A stretch of 38,594 nt of DNA from Escherichia phage phi467, in the sequence record LN997803; one strand, 5' to 3'. Position 1 is the first letter of the stretch. Each line of letters starts with the position of its first letter. Made by a program: the position numbers. This document shows positions 30,201 through 33,200 of the stretch, in pieces.

Positions 30201-33200
30201 AAACTGATAGCACTCTGGTTATCACTTTTACATATAAAGGGGTTCTGTGTCGGGAGCCCCTCTCCAGAATGGAAGTAAACGCGCGCGGTGTGAAGTACGC
30301 CGAGCGTCTGCTGGGAGAAATAAAAAATCAGATTATCGATGGTACCTTCGAATATGCGAAATATTTCCCCAATTCCAAAAAACTGGAGTTATTCGGTGTA
30401 GTAAAGAAAACCAAAAATATTAAGTCCTATCTTGATGAATACCTGAAAATTTGCATAAACCGTAATCTGTCGCCGTCAACCATTGGCGGTTACGAAAAAT
30501 GTCTATCAGCACTATCAGAACTACATAAACTACATGTAACAGAATTGACGCCTGCGATACTAAAAAATTGGATAGCCAGCCGAAAAACTAGCTGAAAACA
30601 ATCAGGAATAACCTGTCATTTCTGCGCAGCGCCATTGATGAAGCTGTTACGGATGGCCTGCTGACCATTAACCCGGTAACCCTCGTCAGCGCCAGCCGGT
30701 ACCACGTGATCGACAGTAGCCCGAGCGCCGACGATTACGAGGTTGACCCGTTCACGCCAGCGGAGACCCTTGCCATTTACCAGAGCTGCAGGTACAGGGA
30801 ATGGGAAAACCTGTTCCGCTTTGCTTTCAATACAGGTCTGCGGAGCTCAGAACTGTGCGCGCTGCGCTGGGCTGATCTCGACACCATCGCGAACACAGCC
30901 CACGTTCAGGCGGCCAGTGTCGTAGGGGTACTTAAAGGCACCAAGACAAAAGCCGGTACCCGTAAGGTGGAGCTGAACAGTGAGGCGCTGGCAGCCCTGC
31001 AGGCGCAGAAGCAATACACCTTTATGAAAAGTGAGTTCATATTCAGCGATCCGAAAACGGGAGAACCCTGGACGAACGCCGACGCTATCCGTAAAAAAGC
31101 ATGGGTGCCGACCCTGAAAAAAGCTGGTGTGCGCTACCGTAACCCGTACCAGACGCGCCACACATTCGCCACCAGACACATTAGCCAGGGTGTAAACCTT
31201 TTCTGGCTTGCCGGGCAGATGGGGCATAAGGGGCCGGAAATGCTGTTCCGCAATTACGGTAAATACCTGGCTGAATACGATGGTAAAACGTCTATAAATG
31301 TTGTGTCAAGCTGAGTACATAGGCTTAAGGCTGATGAAAATTAAGAATGAGTCTACCATTGCTTTTTGTGAAATGAGCTATCATCTATGTTATTGATAGT
31401 TTCCATAGTTCATTTAGGTAATTGTAAATTTAATTAAAATCAATAACTTACATCATAGCAAGAAATGGAGTGCAAATATATTTCTTGACTTCACGTAAGT
31501 TACTTTATTGCAATAAATTTTCACTAGGACAGTGCAAGGACACTGATAGTACTTGATGAGTCCCAGTACAAACTGTTATCCTGTGCTCCACAAATTCTAA
31601 AACTTTTATGTTTTTTTACTTTTCAAGAGCTTAACGTAGGTATCGGCGAAGCACCACAACTGGAGTGAACACTATGAAAAAGACACTGACCGTAGGTTTC
31701 GGTGAAGGTTAACTACAACCTAAAATTTTAAAACAAACCTCCATTAGCACAATAAGGCCTCCCATGCGGAGGTCTTTTGTTATAGGAATCAATAAGATGG
31801 CGAGAACATTAGTCAACGTCAGCGCTACAATTTTTGCTCTAATGATGATTGTCAGAGCACTTTTTACTTATATCTACCCTGGAAAACTACCATTTAGCAT
31901 CGCCATCATTGATTGGCTGATCGTCATTGCTGGTTCTGGTGCAGCAATATCTTCTATCTTCTGCTTCATCAAAAAACGCTATCCAGACACTGCAGAATTT
32001 CTTCCTATGTTCAGCACTGTTTGTTATGTGATTATCCTTATTGGATATGCAATTTTAAGGTACACACCGGCCTATCAAACATCGCTTTCGATCATGGTTA
32101 CAGGAATGCTCGTTGGAATGGGATGGTGGATACAATGCATAACGTCCGCTGCTAACACGCGCAGGTCCCACACGCTGAACATGATCATTAACACCCGAAC
32201 AAGCCCGGAGTACCAAAAACAGCTTCGGAACAGCACCAAATTCTATCGGGGCATGCGTTATGTACCACAAGAACTATCAGAGTGGCGCTGCAACCCAGAC
32301 AAAGAAGAATACAAGAATATGAAGGTCCCCGATGAGTACAGGGATGCCATCAATGGCCTTTTATATATTCTTAATTATTTCGAGTTTCTTGCGCAGGGTA
32401 TCAAGTTCAAGGATTTGGATGACGAATTACTGAGGGAGTGCTTCTCCAGCTTCTTACGCGGGATAGAACGTCGTGGCTTCCACATGATCTTAGAGTCTCA
32501 GAAACAGGACCCTGCAGCCTTTGAAGGAATAATCTACCTTTCAAAAAAATGGAACGGAACATCGTTTGTTGAAACCCACCGTTCCAACCCTAATACGGTT
32601 GAGCTCGGGGTTCCATATCCTTCAAACGATATGGTTGAAAAAATGGTTCAAGGTCAGCCGTTAATAGATAGCGACGCAGGGCCGGAACTTCAAGTGGCCA
32701 CTTAATCTCGTTGTATGGACCAAGAGAGGACCAGAAAATGCACTCAAAATGCACTTGAGGCATTTTTAAACAGAGAATGCATTGTTATTCAATGGGTTAA
32801 GCATTGCTCGGGCACGGGTTCAACTCCCGCCAGCTCCACTTTTTAGTTGTTTGAAGTTCAATGAAGTCTACTAAGCACACAGCACAAGCTCTGCGGGCTT
32901 TTTTACGTCTATTGTCGTCCAGTGAGAATTGCTGAGAACTACGAGTTATGGCACCCTGAATGGGACCCACTAAGAAGGGTCCAAAAACCGAGGGTCCCAA
33001 AATGGCAAAAATCGCTAAGAAGCTCACTGACACTGAAATCAAAAGCACCAAGCCAGCCGATAAAGAAATCAACTTGTTTGACGGTGATGGTCTGATTCTA
33101 CGAATCGCTCCTTTGGCGAAAGGAGGCAAGAAAAATTGGTATTTCAGGTATGCAGTACCCGTGAGCAAGAAAAGAACCAAAATGAGCCTTGGGACATATC

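What the first reader, a model, noticed from the sequence alone, without database searches (positions are those of the whole stretch)
31315..32705. Prophage right junction followed by a membrane protein gene of unknown function
After the int stop the sequence becomes strongly AT-rich. It contains a 12-codon ORF (31676..31714, MKKTLTVGFGEG), then a CCTCC-catgc-GGAGG hairpin with a T-run (31750s), then a gene for a ~300-aa protein with N-terminal TM helices and a hydrophilic C-terminal domain. Its position between a prophage end and an integrase island fits a stand-alone abortive-infection or exclusion gene. The attL core should lie in 31315-31700.
Basis: partly seen in the sequence, partly recalled or inferred. 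Interest (0 to 1): 0.45.

Follow-up and report, generated by a model that had tools for sequence, protein, structure and literature searches.

The report
Prophage micro-peptide plus DUF4760 membrane-protein cassette
The membrane-protein gene lies inside the prophage, not beyond its end, and it comes with a tiny, strongly conserved peptide gene and a transcription terminator in front of it, a three-part cassette found in many phages and apparently not described before.

Summary
These are the AT-rich spacer, a 12-codon ORF (true coordinates 31674-31712), a terminator hairpin (31754-31780) and a 302-aa membrane protein (31797-32705, Pfam DUF4760). The boundary claim is wrong. The only att copy is a 25-bp ssrA 3' end at 32815-32839, downstream of the gene, so the gene is prophage cargo between int and attR. 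The main result is that the mini-ORF and hairpin are not incidental. A Shine-Dalgarno-led ORF of 7-23 codons ending G-x-G-x-(G/S)-stop, followed by a strong intrinsic terminator, precedes DUF4760 genes in essentially every locus examined. This includes an Acinetobacter-phage subfamily only 27% identical. The Gly codons vary synonymously and the terminator stems covary. No antiterminator is predicted. Orphan copies of the same micro-ORF (MRDIGYGEG*, MRNVGFGEG*) sit in virulent T1-like phages with no DUF4760 gene nearby. My preferred reading, which is inferred, is a toxin-antitoxin-like module. An abundant short peptide acts in trans on a membrane effector made only by terminator read-through, and it probably serves phage exclusion. 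A cis-acting leader peptide remains a serious rival. No function has been tested.

The parts
30140..31314 (+). Prophage tyrosine integrase (Arm-DNA-bind_2 plus Phage_integrase domains). In this window it is broken by a 1-nt deletion at about 30589.
   Evidence: Pfam hits on the two halves. The allele in E. coli O26:H11 str. 11368 is an intact 391-aa protein, and the alignment shows a single missing A.
31377..31459 (.). Inverted repeat (21-nt arms, 86% complementary) in the AT-rich spacer. Its function is unknown.
   Evidence: the repeat finder pair I2. It is partly conserved in the alignment of the enteric group.
31485..31490 (+). Conserved TTGACT, which resembles a -35 element and may belong to an upstream promoter. 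The window has a 5-nt deletion just downstream of it compared with relatives.
   Evidence: TTGAC is nearly invariant in the 15-sequence alignment. That it is a promoter element is inferred.
31553..31582 (+). Putative sigma-70 promoter of the cassette. The -35 is TTGATG (31553-31558), the spacer is 18 nt, and the extended -10 is TGTTATCCT (31574-31582). The predicted transcription start is near 31590.
   Evidence: CTTGA and TGnTA are conserved across 15 diverged loci. The site scores below the threshold of the consensus scan. This is inferred and has not been mapped.
31662..31712 (+). Shine-Dalgarno GGAG (31662-31665) plus the micro-ORF at 31674-31712, MKKTLTVGFGEG*.
   Evidence: The micro-ORF is conserved upstream of DUF4760 genes in all loci that have enough upstream DNA. 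There are 36 distinct DNA versions, the Gly codons vary synonymously, and 13 different DNA versions all encode VGFGEG.
31754..31780 (+). Intrinsic terminator between the micro-ORF and the DUF4760 gene. The stem has 9 bp, the loop 5 nt, and it is followed by UCUUUUG. Predicted dG is -13 kcal/mol.
   Evidence: Found by the terminator scan. A terminator is present in 34 of 34 diverse leaders, and its predicted formation does not depend on whether a ribosome occupies the micro-ORF. Across 27 terminators there are 19 different inner-stem sequences.
31797..32705 (+). DUF4760 membrane protein of 302 aa. It has about 4 N-terminal transmembrane helices followed by an all-alpha domain that is predicted to be cytoplasmic. 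The Shine-Dalgarno AGGA is at 31784-31787.
   Evidence: Pfam PF15956, 58.9 bits against a cutoff of 25. phrog_8946 and phrog_21275. RefSeq annotation. AF2 pLDDT is 86 for the full length and 88.6 for the soluble domain. Hydropathy and distribution of positive charges.
32735..32768 (+). P-arm of the att site. It holds two direct AAAATGCAC repeats 11 bp apart (32735-32743 and 32746-32754). These also form a bulged hairpin followed by TTTT, which could serve as the 3' terminator of the cassette.
   Evidence: Tandem repeat finder. The same repeats lie next to attL in str. 11368 and in phage PhiR12_5. The roles as Int arm sites and as a terminator are inferred.
32815..32839 (+). attR core: a 25-bp exact copy of the 3' end of ssrA (tmRNA). 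Imperfect similarity extends back to about 32804. This is the true right junction of the prophage.
   Evidence: BLAST of ssrA against the window. Weak Rfam tmRNA hit at 32794-32841. Genomes without the prophage align from about 32808 onward, with a complete ssrA joined directly to the island.
33002..34231 (+). P4-type integrase of the neighbouring ssrA island. It is a separate element and not part of the cassette.
   Evidence: Pfam and NCBIfam PRK09692. In strain 94-3024 it follows ssrA directly.

Best explanation
The region is the int-proximal cargo slot of a lambdoid prophage integrated in ssrA. It is not sequence beyond the prophage. The slot holds an autonomous cassette with four parts in order:
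- a sigma-70-type promoter;
- a well-translated micro-ORF whose last 6-8 residues are conserved (hydrophobic-x-[V/I]-G-[F/Y/V]-G-E-G-stop);
- a strong intrinsic terminator;
- a DUF4760 inner-membrane protein.

Shown here: the boundaries, the cassette architecture, its deep conservation, selection on the micro-ORF at the peptide level, and the conserved terminator.

Inferred: most transcripts stop at the terminator, so the peptide message greatly outnumbers the DUF4760 message. The short peptide, which is presumably short-lived, acts in trans on the DUF4760 protein as its inhibitor or ligand, in the manner of a toxin-antitoxin pair. The membrane protein would be a conditional effector that a lysogen uses against superinfecting phage. 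It would be released when peptide supply collapses. Virulent T1-like phages would carry orphan copies of the peptide gene as antidotes.
For: Boundaries:
- The single ssrA core copy is at 32815-32839.
- The unoccupied site in strain 94-3024 joins ssrA directly to the island.
- Int and DUF4760 stay together while the right flank varies.
- The ssrA 3' end lies about 110-130 nt after the gene in all enteric loci.
- PhiR12_5 has the same type of int and the same P arm, but carries three other small genes in the slot.

The gene is phage-borne:
- PHROG hits.
- Pseudomonas phage Riah and Acinetobacter phage TRS1 carry homologues.
- 38 plus 20 IMG/VR viral loci carry homologues.

Cassette:
- The micro-ORF is present in about 80 of 90 loci of the subfamily. 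The exceptions are loci with truncated upstream DNA, one locus with a 1-nt deletion, and one with a GFGES* variant.
- It is also present in the subfamily that is 27% identical.
- In relatives at 23-31% identity the micro-ORF is present but its C-terminus has drifted.
- There are 36 DNA versions. Gly at positions -5 and -3 is invariant and is encoded by four different codons.
- Among enteric loci, variation in the last six codons is confined to third positions.
- Terminators are present in 34 of 34 leaders, and no competing fold is predicted. Their stems covary.

Evidence for action in trans:
- L091 has tandem duplicated micro-ORFs that differ only synonymously.
- Orphan micro-ORFs with a Shine-Dalgarno and a terminator, but no DUF4760 in the DNA held, occur in E. 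coli phage ZCEC08 (MRDIGYGEG*) and in Klebsiella phages VLCpiS13b and 6991 (MRNVGFGEG*).

Precedents for a terminator that sets the ratio of products: type III toxin-antitoxin loci (PMC3401426) and mccA-mccB (PMC4231749).
Against: - No function of DUF4760 has been tested anywhere. One search for the family name found a single incidental mention.
- The protein has no significant hit to any PADLOC defence model; the one match (DrmMII, E = 0.0026) is taken as chance.
- The gene has no partner of known function.
- Toxicity, peptide binding and peptide instability are all assumed.
- A conserved C-terminal motif placed directly before a stop codon is also the hallmark of ribosome-arrest leader peptides. 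Gly as the last residue gives slow peptide release (PMC10802582).
- The orphan micro-ORFs could be remnants, or could have a different role. In Klebsiella phage ZX4 the same position holds an unrelated peptide, MREIDLGIF*.
- Only part of each orphan-bearing contig was examined.
- The promoter and the efficiency of the terminator are predictions.
Confidence: 0.45

Rival explanations
1. The micro-ORF is a cis-acting leader peptide. Its nascent G-x-G-x-G end slows or arrests the ribosome at the stop codon, and the position of the ribosome controls read-through of the terminator into the DUF4760 gene. This would be attenuation of the tnaC or erm type.
For: - Only the C-terminal 6-8 residues and the position of the stop codon are conserved, while ORF length varies from 7 to 23 codons.
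- A terminator lies between the ORF and the gene in every case.
- Gly as the last residue gives the slowest release by RF1 and RF2 (PMC10802582, which cites Pierson 2016).
- In Pseudomonas loci the stem starts only 12-19 nt after the stop codon.
Against: - No alternative antiterminator pairing is predicted in 34 of 34 leaders, whether or not a ribosome covers the ORF.
- The leader as a whole is no more structured than shuffled sequence, z = -0.33.
- The distance from stop codon to stem ranges from 12 to 48 nt. That is too far for direct occlusion in the enteric loci, including this one at 44 nt.
- Orphan micro-ORFs exist with nothing downstream to regulate.
- The first copy of the tandem pair in L091 is not next to the terminator, yet its peptide sequence is preserved.
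Confidence: 0.22
2. The peptide is a precursor or substrate, as MccA is for MccB. The DUF4760 protein would modify or export it, and the terminator would supply an excess of substrate message.
For: - mccA encodes a 7-aa peptide and is followed by an intrinsic terminator before mccB. That terminator sets the ratio of peptide to enzyme (PMC4231749).
- The micro-ORFs here can be as short as 7-9 codons and keep a conserved C-terminal residue.
Against: - DUF4760 shows no similarity to any known peptide-modifying enzyme or transporter.
- The cassette contains a single protein gene and no immunity or export partner.
- The soluble domain is a small all-alpha fold with no recognisable catalytic motif.
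Confidence: 0.1
3. The prophage ends just after int, with its att core in 31315-31700. The membrane-protein gene is then an independent islet between the prophage and the P4-type integrase island.
For: The spacer after int is AT-rich and contains inverted repeats.
Against: - There is no copy of the ssrA end or of the attL flank in 31315-32800. The only match there is an 11-bp hit at chance level.
- In genomes without the prophage the cassette is also absent.
- The cassette always follows this type of int, and the right flanks differ.
- The arm-type repeats shared with attL lie after the gene.
Confidence: 0.03
4. The cassette is a lysogenic-conversion or phage-physiology module unrelated to defence, for example one acting on membrane homeostasis or lysis timing. 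The micro-ORF would only tune its expression.
For: - In Pseudomonas phage Riah and in P. aeruginosa prophages the gene sits next to the lysis genes.
- In Acinetobacter phage TRS1 it lies within the tail module.
- There is no significant PADLOC hit; the one match (DrmMII, E = 0.0026) is taken as chance.
Against: - Its positions are typical moron slots, and they differ between phage groups. That argues against a core role in phage physiology.
- Orphan peptide genes in virulent phages are hard to explain under this view.
Confidence: 0.15

Closest known systems
Type III toxin-antitoxin / abortive-infection loci (ToxIN, CptIN, TenpIN)
   Same: The order of parts matches: promoter, small abundant antitoxin gene, intrinsic terminator that sets the ratio, then the effector gene. 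Both kinds of locus sit on mobile elements and phages, and phage-encoded antitoxin mimics are known (PMC3401426).
   Different: The upstream element here is a translated ORF of 7-23 codons under selection at the peptide level, not an array of tandem RNA repeats. None was found. The effector is a membrane protein rather than a ToxN-type RNase.
mccA - terminator - mccB (microcin C operon)
   Same: A very small ORF with a strong Shine-Dalgarno is followed by an intrinsic terminator, and only a minority of transcripts continue into the downstream gene (PMC4231749).
   Different: There is no MccB-like adenylyltransferase and no C-terminal Asn. No upstream sequence that attenuates the terminator is predicted here.
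Leader-peptide attenuators and arrest peptides (trpL, pheL, tnaC, ermCL)
   Same: A short upstream ORF, a conserved C-terminal peptide and a terminator all lie ahead of the regulated gene.
   Different: No antiterminator is predicted, there is no run of regulatory codons, the spacing from stop codon to terminator is variable, and orphan copies exist.
Prophage morons and membrane exclusion proteins (lambda RexB, P22 SieA, HK97 gp15). This comparison is from general knowledge.
   Same: An independently transcribed accessory gene in a variable slot next to int and att, encoding a small inner-membrane protein expressed in the lysogen.
   Different: There is no sequence or fold similarity to any of these proteins. 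The micro-ORF and terminator front end is not a feature of them.
EP domain of plant EDS1/PAD4/SAG101

Membership tests
Pfam DUF4760 (PF15956) | HMM score above the gathering threshold | tested here: met
   58.9 bits against a cutoff of 25, E = 8e-16, covering residues 117-263 of the 313-aa ORF. RefSeq gives the protein the same name.
Lambda-type site-specific integration module (int plus att in a tRNA or tmRNA gene) | A tyrosine integrase with an arm-binding domain lies next to att, and the core sequence is duplicated at both prophage ends and is identical to the 3' end of the target gene. | tested here: met
   Integrase domains. A 25-bp ssrA 3' end lies at 32815-32839, and the full ssrA lies at the left end in str. 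11368. AAAATGCAC arm-type repeats flank both junctions. The int in this window is frameshifted.
Classical transcription attenuator (trp/his/phe type) | A leader ORF and a terminator, plus a mutually exclusive antiterminator whose formation depends on where the ribosome sits. | tested here: not met
   The leader ORF and terminator are present. No competing structure appears in 34 of 34 leaders, free or with the ORF masked. The leader is not unusually structured.
Classical transcription attenuator (trp/his/phe type) | A run of codons for the regulatory amino acid | tested here: inconclusive
   Three Gly codons sit at alternate positions, but they use all four GGN codons. The flanking residues are conserved too. 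This points to selection on the peptide rather than sensing of a tRNA.
Ribosome-arrest peptide acting at a stop codon (tnaC/speFL type) | Conserved C-terminal nascent-chain motif directly before the stop codon | tested here: met
   G-x-G-x-(G/S)-stop in 36 distinct versions.
Ribosome-arrest peptide acting at a stop codon (tnaC/speFL type) | A demonstrated ribosome stall that controls the downstream gene | not testable with these tools
   This needs toeprinting or ribosome profiling.
Type III toxin-antitoxin system | A tandem array of antitoxic RNA repeats upstream of the terminator | tested here: not met
   There is no tandem repeat in 31200-31800. The only array found is the 11-bp att arm repeat at 32735-32755.
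Type III toxin-antitoxin system | A terminator between the antitoxin and the toxin gene | tested here: met
   The criterion is taken from PMC3401426.
Microcin C-like peptide-nucleotide cluster | A MccB-type adenylyltransferase and a precursor peptide ending in Asn | tested here: not met
   The only Pfam hit is DUF4760. The peptides end in Gly or Ser.
Known anti-phage defence systems (PADLOC-DB v2) | A significant match to a defence-protein HMM | tested here: not met
   The only match is a chance-level hit to DrmMII, E = 0.0026, 14.6 bits.
Toxin-antitoxin / abortive-infection module in general | The effector is toxic, it is neutralised by its upstream partner, and the module protects against phage. 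| not testable with these tools
   No experiment is available and no literature on DUF4760 was found.

The most novel reading that the evidence does not exclude
The DUF4760 cassettes are a previously unrecognised class of phage-borne toxin-antitoxin or abortive-infection system. The antitoxin would be a genetically encoded peptide of 7-20 residues (core motif hydrophobic-x-[V/I]-G-[F/Y]-G-E-G), produced in excess because a terminator gates the membrane effector. Virulent T1-like phages of E. coli and Klebsiella would counter the system with orphan copies of the same peptide gene.
Probability: 0.3. Interest if true: 0.8.

Novelty: new variant of a known kind. Interest (0 to 1): 0.62.

Why it matters
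- It corrects the right boundary of the prophage. attR lies in ssrA at 32815-32839, and the int-to-att interval is a swappable cargo slot.
- It turns an anonymous hypothetical membrane protein into a defined three-part module that is evolutionarily deep. The module is found in temperate phages of Escherichia, Klebsiella, Serratia, Pantoea, Shewanella, Pseudomonas, Halomonas and Acinetobacter.
- The micro-ORF is not annotated in RefSeq. I found no literature on it or on DUF4760.
- Matching orphan peptide genes in cultured virulent phages (ZCEC08, VLCpiS13b, 6991) make the antidote hypothesis directly testable with available strains.
- If the hypothesis holds, this would be a peptide-antitoxin defence system with a natural counter-defence.
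- If instead the peptide acts in cis, it would be a new family of arrest peptides that end in glycine.

Tried and rejected
- Rfam found nothing in 31315-31800 at gathering thresholds or at E <= 5. It found only the tmRNA fragment at attR and a sub-threshold IsrM match.
- PADLOC and NCBIfam gave no meaningful hit for the protein.
- A profile search of PDB sequences found nothing.
- I first read the conserved block at 31516-31600 as a structured 5' UTR, because one hairpin looked compensatory between two alleles. The 15-sequence alignment shows instead that the invariant positions fit a -35 element and an extended -10 element. I dropped the structured-RNA idea.
- I looked for an antiterminator both by eye and by constrained folding, and found none.
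- Direct occlusion of the terminator by a ribosome sitting at the stop codon was rejected as a general mechanism, because the spacing ranges from 12 to 48 nt.
- A recurrent "GGAGGS*" mini-ORF turned out to be the antisense of the ssrA 3' end, so it is an artefact.
- A 7-codon MIGYGEG* ORF lies 3 nt upstream of the portal gene in about 35 T7-like contigs. It overlaps that gene's Shine-Dalgarno and belongs to a single lineage. I treat it as probably chance, given roughly 35 random pattern matches expected per scan by my own estimate.
- The three small cargo genes of PhiR12_5 and the neighbours of the gene in TRS1 gave no informative family hits.
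Full report
OBSERVATION

The window comes from an E. coli chromosome of the O26:H11 type. Positions 29475-38594 are 98% identical to strain 11368, and 30600-32800 are 100% identical.

The listed features exist.
- The integrase frame ends at 31314.
- 31315-31796 is 34.4% GC, against 47% for the whole window.
- A 12-codon ORF, MKKTLTVGFGEG*, lies at 31674-31712.
- A terminator-like hairpin, AAGGCCTCC-CATGC-GGAGGTCTT followed by TTTG, lies at 31754-31780.
- A gene for a 302-aa protein runs from 31797 to 32705. This is the RefSeq start. 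The longer ORF from 31764 begins inside the hairpin loop.
- The protein has three strongly hydrophobic segments and one moderately hydrophobic segment. Positive charges lie after the second and fourth segments. This predicts about four transmembrane helices and a cytoplasmic C-terminal domain. The topology is inferred.

WHERE THE PROPHAGE ENDS

In strain 11368 the complete ssrA (tmRNA) gene lies at the far left end of this prophage. The only copy of the ssrA 3' end in the window is a 25-bp exact match at 32815-32839, downstream of the membrane-protein gene. Rfam also sees a tmRNA fragment at 32794-32841.

More than a thousand E. coli genomes match only from about 32808 rightwards. In strain 94-3024, for example, an intact ssrA is joined directly to the P4-type integrase island, with neither the prophage nor the cassette in between.

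Two direct AAAATGCAC repeats, 11 bp apart, lie at 32735-32754. The same repeats lie just inside attL in strain 11368 and in the att region of phage PhiR12_5. They are most simply read as arm-type integrase sites. That reading is inferred.

An allele of the protein that is 86% identical is always found directly downstream of the same type of integrase, while the DNA to its right differs between genomes: csiD-gab genes, a P4-like satellite, or other islands. Every enteric locus has the ssrA end about 110-130 nt after the gene. PhiR12_5 has the same int type and P arm, but three unrelated small genes in the slot.

The true junction is therefore at 32839/32840. The gene is prophage cargo between int and attR. 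The prediction that the att core lies in 31315-31700 is refuted, because no repeat shared with the attL region occurs there.

The window's prophage differs from that of strain 11368 over most of its length, yet shares this int-cargo-att module. The module is mosaic.

THE PROTEIN

It is a member of Pfam DUF4760, with 58.9 bits against a cutoff of 25. It matches PHROGs of unknown function. It matches no NCBIfam model and has no meaningful PADLOC match.

Homologues are 41-84% identical in the multiple alignment and occur in Escherichia, Klebsiella, Dryocola, Shewanella, Pseudomonas, Serratia, Pantoea, Atlantibacter and Halomonas. An exhaustive profile search finds 535 clusters at 50% identity.

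The gene is phage-borne.
- It is in 38 IMG/VR viral contigs.
- It is at the genome end of Pseudomonas phage Riah, next to the lysis genes.
- It is at the edge of P. aeruginosa prophages, next to queA.
- A relative that is 27% identical sits as a moron in the tail module of Acinetobacter phage TRS1.

A literature search for DUF4760 found one incidental mention.

THE MICRO-ORF AND TERMINATOR ARE PART OF THE UNIT

An allele 86% identical at the protein level shows that the mini-ORF, its Shine-Dalgarno and the hairpin are conserved islands within an otherwise diverged spacer.

I then extended the comparison to 90 loci of the subfamily. Every locus with enough upstream DNA has a Shine-Dalgarno-led ORF ending G-x-G-x-G-stop about 60-150 nt before the DUF4760 start. 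Two are variants. L025 has a 1-nt deletion in the A-run of the mini-ORF, and L081 ends in GFGES*. Phage Riah has MKLETGVGAG*. The Acinetobacter-phage subfamily, only 27% identical, has ...DGYGIG*...DGYGIS* or ...[D/E]GIGLG*. Still more distant relatives, at 23-31% identity, keep a mini-ORF and a terminator but with drifted endings: SGCNE*, SIGCEE*, HGSGCG*, NGVEG*.

There are 36 distinct DNA versions of the last six codons. Gly at positions -5 and -3 is invariant and is encoded by GGT, GGA, GGC and GGG. The last residue is Gly in 32 versions and Ser in 4. Thirteen different DNA versions all encode VGFGEG. Among enteric loci, variation in these codons is confined to third positions. All three stop codons are used. 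A hydrophobic residue at position -8 is usually present as well. This is my reading of the peptides.

ORFs of this type are otherwise very rare. About four unrelated cases occur in 1.74 Mb, once the antisense of the ssrA end is set aside.

Between the mini-ORF and the gene there is always a strong intrinsic terminator. It was found in 34 of 34 diverse leaders, with 7-13 bp stems, dG from -11 to -18 kcal/mol and a T-run. Across 27 examples there are 19 different inner-stem sequences, so the hairpin itself is what is conserved.

Upstream, the enteric alignment shows conserved CTTGAt, then 18 nt, then TGnTAtCCT. In the window these are at 31553-31582. A further conserved TTGAC lies at 31485-31490. 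I read these as the cassette's own promoter or promoters. This is inferred, and the consensus scan did not call them.

HOW IT MOST LIKELY WORKS

Only 15-45 nt separate the terminator from the DUF4760 start. Transcription of the gene must therefore come from terminator read-through (inferred). The open question is what the peptide does.

Against a classical attenuator:
- No antiterminator is predicted in any of the 34 leaders, free or with the ORF masked.
- The window's leader is no more structured than shuffled sequence, z = -0.33.
- The distance from stop codon to stem ranges from 12 to 48 nt, and is 44 nt here, so a ribosome at the stop codon cannot generally occlude the stem.

For a trans-acting peptide:
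- One locus, L091, has two tandem mini-ORFs...AIGYGDG* and MIGYGDG*. Each has its own Shine-Dalgarno, and they differ by three synonymous changes only.
- Pattern scans of viral contigs recovered orphan mini-ORFs with a strong Shine-Dalgarno and an immediately following terminator, but no DUF4760 in the DNA held, which was up to 15 kb.
- In cultured virulent T1-like phages these orphans read MRDIGYGEG* (E. coli phage vB_Eco_ZCEC08) and MRNVGFGEG* (Klebsiella phages VLCpiS13b and 6991). These are exactly the two main motif variants of the enterobacterial DUF4760 cassettes.
- The orphan is translationally coupled to the last gene of an operon of unknown small genes that converges on the lysis cassette.
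- Klebsiella phage ZX4 has an unrelated peptide, MREIDLGIF*, at the same spot.

The arrangement of small abundant product, then terminator, then effector matches type III toxin-antitoxin loci, where the terminator sets the antitoxin-to-toxin ratio (PMC3401426). It also matches mccA-mccB (PMC4231749).

My preferred model, at about 0.45, is a toxin-antitoxin-like module in which the peptide restrains a membrane effector that lysogens use against incoming phage, with orphan copies acting as phage antidotes. The cis-acting arrest-peptide model remains at about 0.2. A motif conserved directly before the stop codon and ending in Gly fits slow peptide release (PMC10802582). A precursor-and-export model and a non-defence role are less likely. 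None of these functional steps has been shown.

COMPARISON AND NOVELTY

Membership in DUF4760 and in the lambda-type int/att module is met. Membership in classical attenuators, type III toxin-antitoxin systems, mcc clusters and known defence systems fails on at least one defining feature tested (see the membership table).

The cassette works most like a type III toxin-antitoxin locus in which a translated micro-peptide replaces the RNA repeats. I therefore rate it as a new variant of a known kind.

I found no description of the micro-ORF. It is not annotated in RefSeq, and literature searches for the motif strings found nothing relevant.

LIMITS

- All functional statements are inferences from comparative sequence analysis.
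- Terminator strength, the promoter, membrane topology, and the stability and binding of the peptide are predicted and not measured.
- Contigs bearing orphan micro-ORFs were examined only in part.
- Many loci are closely related, so the counts of loci overstate the number of independent observations. The 36 distinct codon versions and 19 distinct stem sequences are the fairer measure.

Noticed in passing
window 30140-31314 (about 30589): The prophage integrase carries a 1-nt deletion in an A-run compared with the intact 391-aa allele of strain 11368. This splits it into two frames, so either the prophage can no longer excise or this is an assembly error.
   Followed up: partly
window 15051-15204 (- strand): tRNA-Gly(UCC) and tRNA-Thr(UGU) genes lie inside the prophage. 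The prophage at the same site in strain 11368 carries tRNA-Arg, tRNA-Arg and tRNA-Ile instead, so the two prophages differ apart from the shared int-cargo-att module.
   Followed up: no
window 34270-38226: The P4-type integrase island carries a gene pair on the minus strand. One is a 572-aa HEF_HK/HATPase histidine kinase and the other a 588-aa Response_reg_2 receiver protein. A 138-aa hydrophobic ORF lies next to them. They have no significant PADLOC or NCBIfam family match and may be a conflict or defence system.
   Followed up: partly
window 32839/32840: The attR copy of the ssrA end reads CTCCAC|TTTTT. In genomes without the prophage the same junction reads CTCCACCAC|TTTTT. Three bases (CCA or CAC) are therefore missing from the displaced copy.
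   Followed up: partly
L270 (E. coli phage vB_Eco_ZCEC08), L271 and L273 (Klebsiella phages VLCpiS13b and 6991), L269 (Klebsiella phage ZX4): Virulent T1-like phages carry a 9-residue micro-ORF at the end of an operon, followed after 3 nt by a bidirectional terminator. Its sequence switches between MRDIGYGEG, MRNVGFGEG and the unrelated MREIDLGIF. In Aeromonas phage pIS4-A the start codon is ACG.
   Followed up: partly
L211 4065-4085 and about 35 similar T7-like viral contigs: A 7-codon ORF, MIGYGEG*, ends 3 nt before the portal (gp8-like) gene and overlaps its Shine-Dalgarno. This is probably coincidence within a single lineage, but the peptide is identical in type to the DUF4760-associated ones.
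   Followed up: partly
[not shown]
   Followed up: partly
L003 (Escherichia phage PhiR12_5, PV340554.1, record 700-1700): The deposited phage genome continues past its att core into sequence matching the left end of the ssrA island, including a P4-type integrase fragment and an IS fragment. The record seems to include flanking bacterial DNA.
   Followed up: no
window 31377-31397 / 31439-31459 and 31423-31523: Long imperfect inverted repeats lie in the AT-rich spacer between int and the cassette promoter. Their function is unknown; they could be an operator or a protein-binding site.
   Followed up: no
window 38378-38593 (- strand): The end of an IS3-family transposase ORF lies at the right edge of the window. 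It is annotated as a pseudogene in strain 11368.
   Followed up: no
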